The position numbers and the translations under genes were made by a program. This document shows positions 57,433-61,325 of a stretch of 64,000 nt of DNA, in pieces (the stretch's first letter is position 1; each line of letters opens with the position of its first letter). Under the pieces are notes generated by a model. That model searched no databases. It had not been told where the DNA came from and saw nothing but the letters and a program-made list of their open reading frames with translations. Source of the DNA: Pirellula sp. (GTDB taxonomy: Bacteria > Planctomycetota > Planctomycetia > Pirellulales > Pirellulaceae); contig JAJTID010000041.1 in the NCBI GenBank assembly GCA_021300155.1, positions 12,608 through 76,607 of the forward strand, read 5' to 3'.

Positions 57433-58410
57433 CTAGCTCGGTAAAGTGCCGAAACTATCGAGTAAGATTTGCACGACAAGCCGCCAACCATCGACGAGCA
57501 CAAACAATAGCAATTTGAAAGGAGTAGATATCAACGCTGGAGGCAGCATCATCATCCCCATAGAGACAGTGACAGAGGCAATCACGATATCGAGGATCAA
57601 GAAGGGCAAATAAATTTTGAATCCCATCAAGAATGCAATTTTGAGTTCACTCAACATGTATGCCGGCAACAGAACTTGAAGCGGAACATCTTCGAAAGAC
57701 TTTGGCCCAGGGCTGTCTGGCGAATAGCGACTATAGAAAAGAAAAACGTCGTCGTGATTCTCCGCCATGTCGATTTGCATCGCCATAAATTCCCGTATGG
57801 GGGTAGTTCCTCGATCCCAAGCCTCCGAGGTACTCATCTTCGAACCAGGTTTCGTGTAGGGCTCAACCGCTTCGTTGTATACACGGTTCCAGACAGGAGC
57901 CATGACAAAGAGCGTGATGAAAAGTGAGATCGAAGTAATGACTTGACTGGGCGGGAGTTGTTGCGCGCCGAGGGCCTGTTTGAGTAGTCCGAACACAACG
58001 ATGATTCGAACATAGCAGGTTGTCATCAACAGAATGGCAGGTGCTAAGCTCAGCACTGTCAGGAGCAGCAATATTTGTAGGGAGCTTGATAATCCGCGAG
58101 GGCTCAACCAAGCTTCGGGGCCACCTGCCAATTGGTTGGTTAGTTGCTCAACGGCATTTGTTCCTGCGTTTCCGCTCGCCGTTTGAGTTTCCTCCGTGGA
58201 CGAACGCACGGAGCTATTTTCTCGTATGTTTTGGGTGCGCTGGAGGACGGGATCGGAAACCGACGAAGAAAAACCAGATTGACCGAACGCAGGTTGAACA
58301 AGCAGCGCGTTGCAGAGAAACAGAACAAGGAAAAGGAGGAGCCCGAACTTGCAATCGCCTGCGGCAACAGGATGGCTCTTGAGCTTCGAGGATCTGCAAT
58401 TTGCTAGCAT
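57433..58410 (-). CDS. fliP: Flagellar export gate FliP (long N-terminal extension)
   Basis: '[12 protein letters not shown]', 'QQLPPSQV', '[10 protein letters not shown]', 'MGMMMLPP', '[11 protein letters not shown]'. Confidence 0.95.
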
Positions 58411-58580: not shown

Positions 58581-58609
58581 TTGACGCAAAATTCGGTGCA
58601 TACTATGCT
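58581..58609 (+). promoter_or_regulatory. Sigma70-type promoter for the tRNA
   Basis: TTGACG (58581-58586), 17-nt spacer, TATGCT (58604-58609); the tRNA starts 15 nt downstream. Confidence 0.6.
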
Positions 58610-58624
58610 TACGCGAGAAGTTTT

Positions 58625-59114
58625 GGGACCGTAGCTCAACGGTTAGAGCAGGGGACTTAAGCGGTTGGCACCTAAAGCATTTTGAGATAGTCAGACGAAC
58701 CGGCGACAAGAGTTGCTTGGTGGTCCAGGAGATCCAAAAGCCAAGGTGCTACCATATGGGTTGCTCTTTGAGGAGCATACGATCTTCAAAGGGTAGAATC
58801 TGTCAAACTCGGGGAAGGCTTCGCGTTGAAATACGTATGTTAATCCCGAGCCAAGCTGCAACTAGTCAGCCTTTCCTAGCGAGTAGACTTGACAAAGTCG
58901 TTTTGCGGGAACGGTGTTCCGTTGCGGAAGGTGTAGAGACCAGACGGCAGACACTGGATACGTTTTTGGTCAAATGGCTCCTGAATAAGTAGCTAGATGA
59001 CCTGGGCAGATACATGTGAAGGTATGGTCCAGACCACAAACCCGAAAGGGGCGGCGAAAGCCGTAGTCGGTATGCATAATCCCTTGGTTGCAGGTTCGAA
59101 TCCTGCCGGTCCTA
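58625..59114 (+). tRNA. Intron-split tRNA with CAU anticodon, most likely tRNA-Ile2 (lysidine type). Exons 58625-58657 and 59075-59114
   Basis: Joined exons fold as a standard cloverleaf: acceptor GGGACCG/CGGTCCT-A, D arm GCTC/GAGC, anticodon arm GGGGA-CT CAT AA-TCCCT, short variable loop, T arm GCAGG-TTCGAAT-CCTGC. CCA is not encoded. It lacks the initiator signs (1:72 mismatch, G29-G31). Confidence 0.9.
58658..59074 (+). ncRNA. Group I self-splicing intron (IC3-like), 417 nt, no homing-endonuclease ORF
   Basis: The 5' exon ends in U and the intron ends in G. P caaactcggggaa (58804-58816), Q aatcccgagc (58842-58851), R gtgtagagaccagacgg (58931-58947), S gaaggtatggtcc (59018-59030). P7 GACCA/UGGUC, P3 UCUGUC with GACGGCAGA, GAAA-capped hairpins at 59041-59064. 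Confidence 0.92.
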
Positions 59115-59125
59115 CTTTCGAAAAA

Positions 59126-59155
59126 CCACGTGTTGTTTTGCGTGGATATTTTCTT
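59126..59155 (+). terminator. Possible intrinsic terminator or processing hairpin after the tRNA
   Basis: ccacgtg-ttgttt-tgcgtgg followed by atattttctt; weak stem with G-U pairs. Confidence 0.3.
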
Positions 59156-59222: not shown

Positions 59223-59873
59223 TTGCTTGAGACAGAATTGACCGATGACCTTCGCCCTTTTTCTCATCAAATCGCTGGATTGCAACGTGCAGGTCAACAA
59301 TTCTGGACCCGCGGCTGGTCGCTCGGTACTTCGAGCAACTACAGTGTCGTTGTGGAACGGAACCCGATAAAGCTTCTTCTTACCGCGAGTGGCAAAGACA
59401 AAGGGCATTTGCAGCCCAACGATTTTGTCCTTGTAGACGGGGAGGGGAAACCCACGTCTCCAGGTCAGCCCAAGAGTAGCGCTGAGACTCTTCTTCACTG
59501 TTTGGCGGCAACTCGAAACGGTGCTGGTGCGGTTCTTCACACGCATTCAGTCTGGTCAACGATTCTCTCTCAGCACTATTTCCCTCTAGGGGGCATTCGA
59601 ATCGAAGGCTTCGAGATGTTGAAAGGCCTCGAGGGCATAACAACACATGAATCCGTTTGTTGGATCCCAATTTTTGACAACACACAAGACATTGCCGAGC
59701 TATCTTCGCGTGTCTCCAGTTATCTGGATGCCAATCCGGATCAACCTTGCTGGGGCTATCTTATTCGGCAGCATGGACTCTATACTTGGGGCAAGGATTT
59801 AGATTCCGCGATGCGTCACATGGAAGTCATCGAGTTTTTGTTGGAGTGCCTTGGGCGGAAAACGAAACTATAG
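59223..59873 (+). CDS. mtnB: Methylthioribulose-1-phosphate dehydratase
   Basis: 'GWSLGTSSNYS', 'TASGKDKG', 'SSAETLLH', 'LHTHS', 'LKGLEG', 'RQHGLYTWG', 'EFLLEC'. Confidence 0.92.
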   Translation: MLETELTDDLRPFSHQIAGLQRAGQQFWTRGWSLGTSSNYSVVVERNPIKLLLTASGKDKGHLQPNDFVLVDGEGKPTSPGQPKSSAETLLHCLAATRNGAGAVLHTHSVWSTILSQHYFPLGGIRIEGFEMLKGLEGITTHESVCWIPIFDNTQDIAELSSRVSSYLDANPDQPCWGYLIRQHGLYTWGKDLDSAMRHMEVIEFLLECLGRKTKL

Positions 59874-59879
59874 TCCTGA

Positions 59880-61325
59880 GTGAGGCCAATCGACGTGGAC
59901 AGTCTATTTAAACGGGCGATTGCGATAAGCAAGATTGTTGATCAATCGCAGTGGGATTATTGCTTGCGACTGCTACGACATCGCTTGGCTAGCGAGTCCA
60001 GTTCCAGCGGAGATGTCGATGAAGATCGCTTGCTCAAGGCCATCCTGATAGAGCAAGGGGCTTTGACCAAATACCAAGCTGACCAGCTCATGGAGGGAAG
60101 GCAGGGGCTAACACTCGGTCCGTACATCATCACGGACTTTATCGGCCAGGGAGGAATGGGGCAAGTCTACAAGGCGGTCCATCAAGTTCTCGGACGAGAG
60201 TGTGCCATCAAAGTACTTCCTCCGCAAAAATCTGCGATGGATTCTGTGGCAATCGAAGGATTCATGCGAGAGATTCAGCTCCAGGCCAAACTGGATTCCA
60301 AGTACCTCGTGAGAGCTTATGACGCGGGCCAGGATCGCAAGGTGCATTATCTTGTTACGGAATATGTTCCTGGCATGGATTTAAGAAAGCTGGTAAAGTC
60401 GCAAGGGGCTCTTTCCCAGGGAAGAGCCGCGCATATCATTATGCAGGCTGCGTTAGGGCTCGATTATGCACATCAACAAGGCATGGTGCATCGAGATGTG
60501 AAGCCTGGAAACATACTGGTCACACCCGACGGCCAGGCGAAAGTCTCTGATGTTGGCCTAGCCGCAATCTTTGTTGACTCTCCGGCTGCAACATTCCGCT
60601 ATTCCAGTGACAATCGAGGCGAATCGAATTCCTTAAGCTTATTTGATGATCCACGCGCTGGAAAAATCCTAGGTACCGCCGACTATCTTTCGCCGGAGCA
60701 GATAAAAACACCATTGGAGGTAGGACCTGTTAGTGATGTGTATTCATTGGGATGCACGCTCTACTATGCGGTATGTGCTAAAGTGCCCTTTCCTGGTGGA
60801 GATACTGCAACCAAGCTGCGAAGGCATTTAGAAGAAATCCCGATGCATCCCCGGCGTTTCGCAACTGGTCTTCACGATGATTTCGTCGATATTGTTGCGG
60901 AGATGCTGGAAAAGGATGTTCACAAACGTATTCAATCGTGCGCGGAGGTTGCCGCTCGCCTCGAACCGTGGGCAAATCAAGAGTGGACTGCAACTTCTTA
61001 TCCAACCATCGCGAAAAGCCCCTGGGCAGCTCCGCCTCCACCTTCGATCGAATCCGAACAACATCCGCTCGCCGAAGACAGTCTTCATGAGACATCCCAA
61101 CCATCAAACGAGACCGGCGCATCGCAAGCTTCCAGTAAAAAACTAAATAACAACCCATCGCTTCCGGCCCCATCCGTGTTGCACGACGACTCGATCTCGG
61201 GGCACGCACAGTCCCCTGAGAGAACATCTCTCAGCATGACCATTGCACTTACTGCAGCCGTTGTGGTCCCACCCTCGCTGGTGATTGGAGCGATATTGGG
61301 CTATTTGATTGCTATGCGTCCGTAA
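59880..61325 (+). CDS. Hanks-type Ser/Thr protein kinase with C-terminal membrane anchor
   Basis: 'IGQGGMGQVYKA', 'AIK', 'HRDVKPGN', 'DVG', 'GTADYLSPEQ', 'DVYSLG'; C-terminal hydrophobic helix. Confidence 0.92.
   Translation: MRPIDVDSLFKRAIAISKIVDQSQWDYCLRLLRHRLASESSSSGDVDEDRLLKAILIEQGALTKYQADQLMEGRQGLTLGPYIITDFIGQGGMGQVYKAVHQVLGRECAIKVLPPQKSAMDSVAIEGFMREIQLQAKLDSKYLVRAYDAGQDRKVHYLVTEYVPGMDLRKLVKSQGALSQGRAAHIIMQAALGLDYAHQQGMVHRDVKPGNILVTPDGQAKVSDVGLAAIFVDSPAATFRYSSDNRGESNSLSLFDDPRAGKILGTADYLSPEQIKTPLEVGPVSDVYSLGCTLYYAVCAKVPFPGGDTATKLRRHLEEIPMHPRRFATGLHDDFVDIVAEMLEKDVHKRIQSCAEVAARLEPWANQEWTATSYPTIAKSPWAAPPPPSIESEQHPLAEDSLHETSQPSNETGASQASSKKLNNNPSLPAPSVLHDDSISGHAQSPERTSLSMTIALTAAVVVPPSLVIGAILGYLIAMRP

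What the first reader, a model, noticed from the sequence alone, without database searches (positions are those of the whole stretch)
58625..59114. Group I self-splicing intron inside the anticodon loop (U33/C34) of a CAU tRNA in a planctomycete
Seen: two tRNA halves separated by 417 nt. The only junction giving a 7-nt loop with a 5'-exon U and a terminal G is ...GGGGACU / CAUAAUCCCU.... The full catalytic core is readable: P4 from P and Q; P7 with a compensatory GACCA/UGGUC pair in place of the usual GACUA/UAGUC; P3; short P1 (GACU with GGUU at 58663-58666); peripheral helices GCACCU/AGGUGC, CUUUGAGGA/UCUUCAAAG and CUACC/GGUAG; GAAA tetraloops at the 3' end. Established: bacterial tRNA group I introns are known mainly from cyanobacterial Leu(UAA) and fMet(CAU), Azoarcus Ile(CAU) and alphaproteobacterial Arg(CCU). 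The Azoarcus intron (about 205 nt) sits after the anticodon; as I recall, the pre-anticodon site is the cyanobacterial fMet one. Inference: an Azoarcus-like core at an fMet-type site in a non-initiator tRNA, twice the size through peripheral extensions. This points to an independent invasion in a phylum where I know of no described case. The ORF track misses it entirely.
Basis: partly seen in the sequence, partly recalled or inferred. Interest (0 to 1): 0.92.

Follow-up and report, generated by a model that had tools for sequence, protein, structure and literature searches.

The report
Self-splicing intron in Pirellula tRNA-Ile2
The only gene for the AUA-reading isoleucine tRNA of this Pirellula genome is split just before its anticodon by a real 417-base group I intron, but this kind of intron at this site has already been catalogued and turns out to be common, so the case is solid but fairly ordinary.

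Summary
- A tRNA(CAU) gene at 58625-59114 is split between U33 (58657) and C34 (59075) by a 417-nt insert (58658-59074).
- Intron-less alleles in sister species read exactly GGGGACT|CATAATCCC.
- The insert matches Rfam Intron_gpI over the full model, but below the gathering score (30.8 bits against 50).
- 37 other distinct homologues sit at the same site. Across them, 43 core base pairs are 97.5% canonical, and 14 pairs show compensatory changes.

The tRNA is tRNA-Ile2.
- Its best E. coli match is the CAU tRNA-Ile.
- TilS is present in the genome, and AUA makes up 9% of Ile codons.
- No other canonical tRNA-Ile2 gene was found, so the intron almost certainly splices.

- The guide sequence is the invariant UAUGGGUU at 58755-58762, not GGUU at 58663-58666.
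- The 91 nt in between form a hairpin inserted in the P1 loop.
- The core is closer to other 33/34-site CAU-tRNA introns (median 85% identity) than to Azoarcus-type introns (77%).
- Within Pirellula the intron is inherited vertically, with losses.
- A 2020 preprint (Williams) already lists "Ile2.2Ug" and "Met.2Ug" types.

Verdict: a new member of a known kind, of modest interest. The tool for finding sequencing runs was closed, so I have no direct evidence of splicing.

The parts
58581..58609 (+). Promoter-like site TTGACG-17-TATGCT, 16 nt upstream of the tRNA 5' end
   Evidence: It is a consensus match only, and the count of such sites in the region is at chance level. Only its position is suggestive.
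58625..58657 (+). 5' exon of tRNA-Ile2(CAU): acceptor, D arm, 5' anticodon stem, C32 and U33. It ends at U33 (58657), the -1 U of the 5' splice site.
   Evidence: Identical or nearly identical in 20 related loci.
58658..59074 (+). Group I intron, 417 nt, IC3-type core, no homing endonuclease ORF
   Evidence: - RF00028 match of 30.8 bits, E=6.7e-6.
- 37 other distinct homologues at the same site.
- Covariation in the core helices.
- MFE z-score -4.2.
- The internal 91-aa ORF has no Pfam match.
58663..58753 (+). Hairpin inserted in the P1 loop (L1). Its stem is GGU-GCACCU / AGGUGC-ACC. It carries a CCUAAA motif (58671-58676) that resembles the 5' half of an 11-nt GAAA-tetraloop receptor.
   Evidence: - A hairpin of 36-100 nt is predicted at this place in 37 of 38 homologues, despite different sequences; L025 is the exception.
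- The MFE fold of the whole intron reproduces it.
- The receptor role is inference.
58755..58762 (+). Internal guide sequence UAUGGGUU.
- GGUU (58759-58762) pairs with exon G30-U33, with U33·G58759 as the splice-site wobble.
- UG (57-58) pairs with intron +2/+1 before step 1.
- UAUG (55-58) can pair with 3' exon CAUA to form P10.
   Evidence: - GGGUUGC is invariant in all 38 homologues.
- The +2:x pair varies as AU/GU/GC.
- Across the wider family, exon GGCU goes with guide GGGCU and exon GACU with GGGUU.
- The Tpc1.fMet.2Ug seed has the same architecture.
58766..58791 (+).
   Evidence: A hairpin is predicted at this place in every homologue shown (its listing was cut part-way through), with unrelated sequences.
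58799..58804 (+). P3 5' strand UCUGUC, preceded by the conserved J2/3 GUAGAA (58793-58798) and followed by J3/4 AAA
   Evidence: 100% canonical pairing. CG/UG/UA variation at one pair and UG/CG at another.
58808..58850 (+). P4-P5 domain.
- P4: CUCGGGG (58808-14) / UCCCGAG (58844-50).
- P5: GGCUUCGC...GUAUGUU with its distal hairpin.
58856..58927 (+). P6 (CUGC / GCGG at the base) with a long distal extension
   Evidence: all 4 basal pairs show compensatory double changes; a hairpin is predicted in every homologue shown (the listing was cut part-way).
58938..58942 (+). P7 5' strand GACCA, preceded by J6/7 AAGGUGUAGA
   Evidence: The C-G pair at 81:105 is replaced by U-A in 3 homologues (GACUA/UAGUC).
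58946..58951 (+). P3 3' strand GGCAGA. The P3/P7 pseudoknot closes here.
58952..59018 (+). P8: CAC/GUG base with a 61-nt distal extension. In most homologues P8 is only CAC-GUAAA-GUG.
   Evidence: Base pairs are 100% canonical, and 2 of 3 show compensatory changes.
59025..59029 (+). P7 3' strand UGGUC
59033..59071 (+). P9 three-way domain.
- ACCAC (59033-37) pairs with GU(C)GGU (59066-71).
- This helix encloses P9a CCC-GAAA-GGG (59041-50) and P9b CGGC-GAAA-GCCG (59052-63).
   Evidence: P9a and P9b are 100% canonical with compensatory changes. The closing helix is 89% canonical.
59074..59074 (+). Omega G, the last intron nucleotide
   Evidence: G in all 38 homologues.
59075..59114 (+). 3' exon: C34 A35 U36 (anticodon), A37, A38, 3' anticodon stem, variable loop UGGUU, T arm, acceptor strand and discriminator A73. 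CCA is not encoded.
59126..59155 (+). Terminator-like hairpin CCACG...CGTGG followed by a T-rich tail, 11 nt after the tRNA
   Evidence: A consensus match only.

Best explanation
This is an ORF-less group I intron with an IC3-type core. It interrupts the single canonical tRNA-Ile2(CAU) gene of a Pirellula genome (Planctomycetota, Pirellulales) between U33 and C34.

Proposed mechanism. All splicing steps are inferred, not shown.
1. The gene is transcribed as a roughly 490-nt precursor.
2. The guide sequence UAUGGGUU (58755-58762) pairs with the end of the 5' exon (GACU) and the first two intron bases. This forms P1, with the U33·G58759 wobble at the splice site.
3. A 91-nt hairpin sits in the P1 loop. 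It may dock on one of the two GAAA loops of the P9 domain.
4. The P3-P8 core binds exogenous guanosine, which cleaves after U33.
5. Omega G59074 then enters the G site, and the 3' exon (CAUA) pairs with the 5' half of the guide to form P10.
6. The exons are ligated to GGGGACU-CAUAAUCCC.
7. Only then can TilS convert C34 to lysidine, so that the tRNA reads AUA.

Origin. The intron belongs to a broad family of same-site (33/34) introns in CAU tRNAs (fMet, Met, Ile2) of many phyla. Within Pirellula it has been inherited vertically. Its peripheral helices (L1, P2, P5, P6, P8) have grown or shrunk, and it has occasionally been lost precisely.
For: Junction:
- Intron-less alleles in at least 8 congeners, and in other families of the order, read exactly GGGGACT|CATAATCCC.
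- L021 scores 75.8 bits as an uninterrupted tRNA.

Group I nature:
- RF00028 matches over the full model, at 30.8 bits and E=6.7e-6. Homologues score 33-48 bits.
- All 38 introns follow a U and end in G.
- 43 core pairs (P1, P3, P4, P6, P7, P8, P9) are 97.5% canonical across 32 distinct sequences, with 14 compensatory pairs. Shifted-register controls give 34-42% canonical and 1-7 compensatory pairs.
- The variable peripheral segments are predicted to fold as hairpins in nearly every homologue listed, with unrelated sequences (one L1 exception, listing cut).
- The MFE of the window's intron has z=-4.2 and reproduces L1, P2, P3, P4-P5, P6, P9a and P9b.

Guide sequence:
- GGGUUGC is invariant.
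- The exon -3 base covaries with the guide across the wider family: GGCU with GGGCU, GACU with GGGUU.
- The published fMet.2Ug seed has the same layout.

tRNA identity and need:
- The best E. coli match is the tRNA-Ile gene with anticodon CAU, at 82-84% identity.
- It has no C1xA72 mismatch. The initiator tRNA is on C89 and an elongator-like CAU tRNA is on C161.
- TilS is present at 164.7 bits, above its 93.6-bit cut-off.
- AUA occurs 5.0 times per 1000 codons, which is 9% of Ile codons.
- The genome is 99.99% complete.

Vertical history:
- The downstream aldolase gene is syntenic.
- Its tree separates a clade with 397-449-nt introns, which includes this genome, from a clade with 298-323-nt introns. 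One intron-less species is nested in the second clade.

Family placement: core identity is 97% to Planctomycetota introns, 85% to other 33/34 CAU introns and 77% to Azoarcus-type introns (medians).
Against: - I have no RNA evidence.
- The Rfam score is below the gathering cut-off (30.8 against 50).
- P1 proper has only 4 exon pairs, two of them G·U. Both strands are invariant within the Planctomycetota set, so support for it comes from the +2 pair, from the wider family and from homology.
- The genome also has atypical 69-71-nt CAU tRNAs in tRNA arrays on contigs C156 and C219. I cannot exclude that these read AUA.
- The tetraloop-receptor docking of the L1 hairpin is unsupported by covariation. 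More distant homologues lack the CCUAAR motif yet keep both GAAA loops.
Confidence: 0.88

Rival explanations
1. One reading: a recent, independent invasion of a planctomycete tRNA by an Azoarcus-like intron that landed at the fMet-type site. On this reading, P1 is formed by GGUU at 58663-58666, directly after the splice site.
For: - The core shares the IC3 motifs of Azoarcus, such as GUAGAGAC.AGACGGCA and GAGCCAAG.
- The host is the same isoacceptor, tRNA-Ile2, as in Azoarcus.
- The intron is patchily distributed: 15 of 25 Pirellula genomes and 2 of 16 other families of the order.
Against: - Core identity to Azoarcus-type 36/37 introns is the lowest of all classes compared: 75-79%, against 80-90% for same-site introns of other phyla.
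- Intron size classes follow the host-gene tree.
- GGUU at 58663-58666 is absent from homologues, which read GGGG, GAAC, GAUG or GAAG there. In the window it pairs inside the L1 hairpin.
Confidence: 0.07
2. The intron is a decayed, non-splicing relic, and this tRNA gene is a pseudogene. AUA would be read by another tRNA, for example one from the tRNA arrays on C156 or C219.
For: - The genome has other CAU tRNAs, including atypical ones in arrays.
- The Rfam score is below gathering.
- This copy carries large peripheral insertions: L1 is 100 nt and P8 is 67 nt.
Against: - Every core pair in the window's copy is canonical.
- Its 87-nt core is 100% identical to those of two other species.
- Substitutions across 32 distinct sequences are compensatory, which shows purifying selection on the fold.
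- The exons are intact and nearly invariant.
- The array tRNAs lack a normal D arm and do not resemble tRNA-Ile2.
Confidence: 0.04
3. The intron is a genuine group I intron but cannot splice on its own. Its enlarged periphery needs a host protein, such as a chaperone or maturase-like factor, to fold. This differs from the best explanation only in autonomy.
For: - P1 is short and rich in G·U pairs.
- The usual L2-GAAA/P8-receptor clamp of Azoarcus-type introns is missing: L2 is GCAUACGA, and in most homologues P8 is a bare 3-bp stem.
- This is inference from the known protein dependence of many group I introns.
Against: - The two GAAA tetraloops in P9 are conserved in almost all 38 homologues (one GCAA variant), and receptor-like motifs in L1 and P5 offer an RNA-only clamp.
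- The classical bacterial tRNA introns all self-splice in vitro (cited).
- No candidate factor is encoded nearby: the neighbours are FliP, an aldolase and a Ser/Thr kinase.
Confidence: 0.12
4. The insert is an assembly artefact or a chimeric join in a metagenome-assembled genome.
For: The genome has 260 contigs and is probably a MAG.
Against: - Homologous inserts lie at exactly the same tRNA position in 37 other distinct sequences from independent assemblies. These include three single-contig or two-contig complete genomes: G009, G011 and G021.
- The insert lies 12 kb or more from either contig end.
Confidence: 0.005

Closest known systems
'Ile2.2Ug' and 'Met.2Ug' types of group I-split bacterial tRNA genes (K.P. 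Williams, bioRxiv 10.1101/2020.01.27.920355; seeds Gba28.Ile2.2Ug and Sba135.Met.2Ug)
   Same: - A non-initiator CAU tRNA.
- The intron lies after the second anticodon-loop nucleotide (U33/C34).
- U at -1 and G at omega.
- Missed by standard tRNA finders.
   Different: - The Gba28 seed has a different core (UAUAUCGGUAAAA, GUAGAGACUAUAC) and a short L1.
- The Pirellula introns have an IC3 core with a C-G pair in P7, a large L1 hairpin, no GAAA in L2 and two GAAA loops in P9.
- The preprint's phylum table is an image, so I could not tell whether Planctomycetota were counted.
Cyanobacterial tRNA-fMet group I intron ('fMet.2Ug'; Biniszkiewicz et al. 1994; the Synechocystis copy encodes I-Ssp6803I)
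   Same: - Same insertion site, 33/34, in a CUCAUAA anticodon loop.
- IC3-type core.
- The Tpc1 seed likewise has a hairpin inserted in L1 before the guide sequence (UGGGC there, UGGGUU here), as seen.
- Same-site introns are the nearest class by core identity.
   Different: - The host here is tRNA-Ile2, not the initiator. It has no C1xA72 mismatch, and its anticodon stem ends A31-U39 instead of three G-C pairs.
- There is no endonuclease ORF.
- The L2-GAAA/P8-receptor pair is absent.
[quoted passage not shown]
   Same: - Same isoacceptor, tRNA-Ile2.
- Same ribozyme class.
- Shared J6/7-P7 and P4-P6 motifs.
- No ORF.
   Different: - Its site is 36/37, after the anticodon, with guide GUG against CAU.
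- It is half the size and has no L1 insert.
- Core identity is only 75-79% over 87 nt.
- P7 is U-A there and C-G here.
- Its tertiary clamps are L2-P8 and L9-P5.

Membership tests
Group I intron (Rfam RF00028; IC3-type bacterial tRNA introns) | Conserved core P3-P4-P5-P6-P7-P8 with the P3/P7 pseudoknot | tested here: met
   The full-length match covers model positions 1-253. All core pairs are canonical in the window. Covariation was seen across 32 distinct homologues.
Group I intron (Rfam RF00028; IC3-type bacterial tRNA introns) | Score at or above the curated Rfam gathering threshold (50 bits) | tested here: not met
   The window scores 30.8 bits and homologues 32.9-47.9 bits. No RF00028 seed is bacterial. 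E-values of 1e-5 to 1e-9 recur in independent loci.
Group I intron (Rfam RF00028; IC3-type bacterial tRNA introns) | 5' splice site after a U that forms a U·G wobble with an internal guide sequence (P1) | tested here: met
   U33·G58759 lies within GACU|UA / UGGGUU. The guide is invariant in 38 introns, the +2 pair covaries, and exon -3 covaries with the guide across the wider family.
Group I intron (Rfam RF00028; IC3-type bacterial tRNA introns) | Terminal G (omega G) at the 3' splice site | tested here: met
   G59074 in the window. G in all 38 homologues.
Group I intron (Rfam RF00028; IC3-type bacterial tRNA introns) | Guanosine-initiated self-splicing and exon ligation | not testable with these tools
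Williams 2020 type Ile2.2Ug | The host tRNA is tRNA-Ile2 (CAU anticodon, lysidine-dependent), not Met or fMet | tested here: met
   - The best E. coli match is the annotated tRNA-Ile with anticodon CAU, at 82-84% identity.
- TilS is present.
- Separate initiator and elongator-like CAU tRNAs exist in the genome.
- No isotype-specific covariance model was available, so this rests on similarity and elimination.
Williams 2020 type Ile2.2Ug | Intron after the second anticodon-loop nucleotide, with U at -1 and G at omega | tested here: met
   The intron-less alleles fix the junction. This is the only junction that gives a 7-nt loop with U at -1 and G at omega.
Cyanobacterial tRNA-fMet intron (fMet.2Ug) | The host is the initiator tRNA (C1xA72 mismatch, three G-C pairs closing the anticodon stem) | tested here: not met
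   This tRNA has G1·U72 and A31-U39. The genome's initiator is a different gene, on C89.
Cyanobacterial tRNA-fMet intron (fMet.2Ug) | Insertion between U33 and C34 | tested here: met
Azoarcus-type tRNA-Ile intron (Ile2.5Ug) | Insertion after the anticodon (36/37), with guide GUG pairing with CAU | tested here: not met
   The site here is 33/34. Azoarcus-type loci (L023, L039-L043 and others) have CAU|...G|AAUCC.
Mobile group I intron with homing endonuclease | An intron-encoded endonuclease ORF | tested here: not met
   The longest internal ORF (58717-58992, 91 aa, TTG start) has no Pfam match. Homologues as short as 240 nt leave no room for an ORF.

The most novel reading that the evidence does not exclude
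The Planctomycetota clade may be a structurally distinct subtype of IC3 tRNA introns. On this reading, the canonical L2-GAAA/P8-receptor clamp has been replaced. A receptor-like motif (CCUAAR...UAUGG) is carried on a hairpin inserted in the P1 loop, and it docks a second GAAA tetraloop in an enlarged P9 domain. The substrate helix itself would then be tethered to the core. Because the intron sits directly 5' of C34, splicing would also gate lysidine formation and AUA decoding, which could act as a checkpoint or regulatory step.
Probability: 0.12. Interest if true: 0.55.

Novelty: new member of a known kind. Interest (0 to 1): 0.3.

Why it matters
Practical value:
- Standard annotation misses both the intron and the tRNA. 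This applies to ARAGORN in default mode and Rfam at gathering score; tRNAscan-SE is reported not to be designed to detect such introns.
- As a result, this genome and most Pirellula genomes appear to lack the essential AUA-decoding tRNA-Ile2. This distorts tRNA-complement checks and codon-capacity inferences.

Biological value:
- The finding adds a well-populated Planctomycetota clade to the bacterial tRNA group I introns. It comprises 38 distinct sequences of 240-449 nt.
- Natural intron-plus and intron-minus alleles occur at a syntenic locus.
- The size series of peripheral helices around an almost invariant core is a ready-made comparative data set for ribozyme folding studies.

It does not change the picture of where group I introns occur. 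The type was already catalogued in a 2020 preprint, and same-site introns occur in many phyla.

Tried and rejected
1. Rfam at gathering threshold found nothing. The E-value mode was needed.
2. ARAGORN with introns allowed placed the intron three bases downstream and called the gene tRNA-Leu(UAA). I rejected this for three reasons: the tRNA has a short variable loop, that intron would not end in G, and the intron-less alleles show the true junction.
3. I considered that the 3'-terminal RGUY element (GUAGUC or GUGGUU) might pair with the 5' exon GACU. I rejected this. It is the 3' strand of the helix closing the P9 three-way junction (ACCAC/GU(C)GGU), as in the published alignment.
5. A phylum-wide pattern scan covered 401 genomes at up to 1 mismatch and gave 10 hits. 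The reversed-pattern control gave about as many, so only the exact match (this genome) is informative. This says the core motif is rare outside Pirellulales in an even sample, but it is not a sensitive survey.
6. A similarity search of the C161 CAU tRNA against E. coli did not return tRNA-Met. Its assignment as elongator Met rests on elimination.
8. The supplement of the tRNAscan-SE 2.0 paper, which lists genomes lacking Ile2 or fMet because of group I introns, contains no Pirellula or other planctomycete.
9. Literature searches for group I introns together with Planctomycetes found nothing relevant.
Full report
**Observation**

The sequence at 58625-59114 (+) holds two tRNA halves separated by 417 nt.
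- 5' exon: 58625-58657, GGGACCGUAGCUCAACGGUUAGAGCAGGGGACU.
- Intron: 58658-59074, UAAGCGG...GGUAUG.
- 3' exon: 59075-59114, CAUAAUCCCUUGGUUGCAGGUUCGAAUCCUGCCGGUCCUA.

ARAGORN in default mode finds no tRNA anywhere in the window. With introns allowed it finds the split gene and a 417-nt intron. However, it slides the junction by three bases and miscalls the gene Leu(UAA). The joined exons fold into a canonical 74-nt cloverleaf with anticodon CAU.

**The junction is fixed by nature**

I searched 40 related genomes with the whole locus.
- 14 further genomes of the same genus have an insert at the same place. So do two genomes from other families of the order. Insert lengths are 240-449 nt.
- At least 8 congeners and 5 genomes of other families carry an uninterrupted gene.
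- The uninterrupted genes read GGGGACT|CATAATCCC exactly (L019-L021). One of them scores 75.8 bits as a tRNA (L021).
- Contig names from a later scan identify the genus as Pirellula. G003:C226, 15,647 bp, equals JBKCTT010000226.1 'Pirellula sp.'.

**It is a group I intron**

- Rfam at gathering threshold reports nothing.
- In E-value mode RF00028 matches 58741-59054 over the whole model, at 30.8 bits and E=6.7e-6. Five homologues give 33-48 bits.
- I collected 38 distinct introns with the same exon context, 17 from relatives and 21 from a scan of GTDB representative genomes.
- I cut the fixed-length parts of these into a gap-free alignment and counted pairs for P1, P3, P4, the bases of P6 and P8, P7, P9a, P9b and the P9 closing helix.
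- The result was 97.5% canonical cells over 43 pairs and 32 distinct rows. 14 pairs had changes on both sides.
- With the 3' partner shifted by 1-3 columns, the figures were 34-42% canonical and 1-7 such pairs.
- Examples of compensatory change: P7 GACCA/UGGUC against GACUA/UAGUC; P3 C-G, U·G and U-A; all four basal P6 pairs.
- The variable segments (L1, P2, distal P5, P6, P8) are predicted to fold as hairpins in nearly every homologue listed, although their sequences are unrelated (L025's L1 segment is an exception and the listing was cut part-way).
- The MFE fold of the window's intron has z=-4.2. It reproduces L1, P2, P3, P4-P5, P6, P9a and P9b on its own.
- Every intron follows a U and ends in G.

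- Homologues read GGGG, GAAC, GAUG, GAAG and so on at that place.
- In the window these bases form the stem of a 91-nt hairpin at 58663-58753.
- What is invariant in all 38 introns is GGGUUGC at 58758-58764. It lies immediately before P2, as in Azoarcus, where GUG directly precedes P2.

My reading of P1 is 5'-GACU|UA-3' paired with 5'-UGGGUU-3'. U33·G58759 is the splice-site wobble.
- The only variable pair, intron +2 with the base before GGG, is A-U in 15 rows, G·U in 9 and G-C in 4. It is mismatched in 4 of 32.
- Among same-site introns of other phyla, exons ending GGCU go with GGGCU, and exons ending GACU go with GGGUU. This is exon-guide covariation.
- The published seed Tpc1.fMet.2Ug has the same layout: GCU|CA, then a hairpin, then UGGGC, then P2.
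- In the window, the four bases UAUG (58755-58758) can also pair with CAUA of the 3' exon to form P10. UAUGGGUU is therefore complementary to the ligated junction GACUCAUA.
GCACCU/AGGUGC is part of the L1 hairpin, and CUUUGAGGA/UCUUCAAAG is P2.

**Which tRNA it is, and whether it is needed**

- The spliced sequence is most similar (82-84% over about 90% of its length) to the E. coli gene annotated tRNA-Ile whose anticodon is CAU.
- It lacks the initiator marks. The genome's initiator tRNA (C1xA72) is on C89, and an elongator-like CAU tRNA is on C161.
- TilS is encoded, at 164.7 bits against a cut-off of 93.6.
- AUA makes up 9% of Ile codons, or 5.0 per 1000, in 1752 long ORFs.
- The genome is rated 99.99% complete, and the intron occurs in it once.
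- The split gene is therefore the only canonical tRNA-Ile2 gene, which argues strongly that the intron splices.
- Caveat: the arrays on C156 and C219 hold atypical 69-71-nt CAU tRNAs of unknown function.
- A promoter-like site (58581-58609) and a terminator-like hairpin (59126-59155) bracket the gene. These are consensus matches only.

**No mobility gene**

The longest internal ORF, 91 aa with a TTG start, has no Pfam match. Homologues of 240-275 nt leave no room for one. The neighbouring genes are FliP (-), a class II aldolase (+) and a Ser/Thr kinase (+).

**History**

- The downstream aldolase is syntenic in intron-plus and intron-minus species.
- Its tree has two well-supported clades.
- The first clade holds this genome, G003, G022, G011, G009 and G021. 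All carry 397-449-nt introns with an extended L1 hairpin and an extended P8.
- The second clade carries 298-323-nt introns, and the intron-less G020 is nested inside it.
- This is the pattern expected from vertical inheritance with growth and shrinkage of peripheral helices and occasional precise loss. It does not look like recent invasion.
- In an even sample of 401 genomes of the phylum, the exact core motif occurred only in this genome. One-mismatch hits were no more frequent than for the reversed control.
- The open scan of GTDB representatives, however, returned at least 23 Planctomycetota records with the same exon context. They include Pirellulaceae, 'Planctomycetaceae' and a Singulisphaera MAG.

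**Relatives outside the phylum**

I scanned GTDB representatives with the pattern GTAGAGRCYAGACGGCA.
- Re-deriving the junctions shows that CAU tRNAs split at 33/34 are common. They occur in Chloroflexota, Patescibacteria, Omnitrophota, Bdellovibrionota and Bacteroidota, and in initiator-type tRNAs (GGGCU|CAUAACCC).
- Betaproteobacteria carry the Azoarcus type at 36/37.
- Over 87 conserved core nt, the window's intron is 92-100% identical to the Planctomycetota set (median 96.6%).
- It is 80.5-89.7% identical to other 33/34 CAU introns (median 85%).
- It is 74.7-79.3% identical to the Azoarcus type (median 77%).
- The closest relatives are thus the same-site introns. The three CAU tRNAs share the loop CUCAUAA, which would make transfer between them easy. 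That last point is inference.
- The sample is biased by the search pattern.

**Literature**

- K.P. Williams (bioRxiv 10.1101/2020.01.27.920355) mapped 5292 group I-split tRNA genes in 80,413 bacterial assemblies.
- He names four classical types: Leu.3Ug, Arg.5Ug, fMet.2Ug and Ile2.5Ug. He adds 17 new ones, and his seed alignment contains Gba28.Ile2.2Ug and Sba135.Met.2Ug.
It also shows that 'Ile2 at site 2' is already a named type.
- The table by phylum is an image that I could not read.
- The tRNAscan-SE 2.0 paper notes 36 genomes whose fMet or Ile2 gene is hidden by a group I intron. None of them is a planctomycete.
- A full-text search for group I introns, tRNA and Planctomycetes found nothing relevant.
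- Earlier notes of this scan report similar CAU-tRNA introns in phages, Patescibacteria and Betaproteobacteria. These are leads only.

**Structural peculiarity (inference)**

- Azoarcus-type and cyanobacterial introns clamp the fold with L2-GAAA docking on a P8 receptor and L9-GAAA docking on a P5 receptor.
- Here L2 is not GAAA, and in most homologues P8 is a bare CAC-GUAAA-GUG.
- Instead, P9 carries two conserved GAAA hairpins, at 59041-50 and 59052-63.
- Receptor-like motifs sit in P5 (GCUUCG...UAUGU) and on the L1 hairpin. The L1 motif is CCUAAA in the window and CCUAAG...UAUGG in most congeners.
- A contact between the P1-loop hairpin and P9 would tether the substrate helix to the core.
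- More distant homologues lack the motif yet keep both GAAA loops, so there is no covariation support.

**Verdict**

It is a new, well-populated member of a known and already catalogued kind.

Noticed in passing
own genome, contigs C156 (about 30.7-32.9 kb) and C219 (about 9.6-9.85 kb), outside the window: Arrays of tRNA genes (12 on C156). They include atypical 69-71-nt CAU tRNAs with reduced D arms, and one of these is duplicated identically on both contigs. They could belong to a mobile element or to a tRNA-array island.
   Followed up: no
L026, L044, L060, L063, L068, L083, L092, L105, L135 (genome-contig loci): CAU tRNAs of Patescibacteria, Gracilibacteria, Bdellovibrionales and Anaerolineales MAGs are split at the same 33/34 site by introns of 606-622 nt. 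That is long enough to carry an endonuclease ORF.
   Followed up: partly
L079, L128 (genome-contig loci; L079 is a Planctomycetia MAG): A second tRNA context, with the same anticodon-stem sequence, reads AGGGGACUU|...G|AAAAUCCCC. This is an apparent UAA-anticodon tRNA split at 34/35, like the classical Leu.3Ug type. It carries an intron with the same core motif, so Planctomycetota may hold more than one tRNA-intron type.
   Followed up: no
L045, L074, L094, L104, L121, L132 (genome-contig loci; L074 is a Planctomycetia MAG): Initiator-type tRNAs (..GGGCU|CAUAACCC..) are split at 33/34 in non-cyanobacterial MAGs. L074 has exactly the exon context known as the I-Ssp6803I target, as I recall it.
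   Followed up: no
window 57433-58410 (-), 59223-59873 (+), 59880-61325 (+): The neighbouring genes are FliP (flagellar export), a class II aldolase and a Ser/Thr protein kinase. The aldolase and the kinase are syntenic with the tRNA across the genus, but the upstream side is not.
   Followed up: partly
L004 and L007 (G003, G022), P2 region: In these two congeners P2 has grown to 115-119 nt, against 23-50 nt in the others. This shows that each peripheral helix expands independently in different lineages.
   Followed up: no
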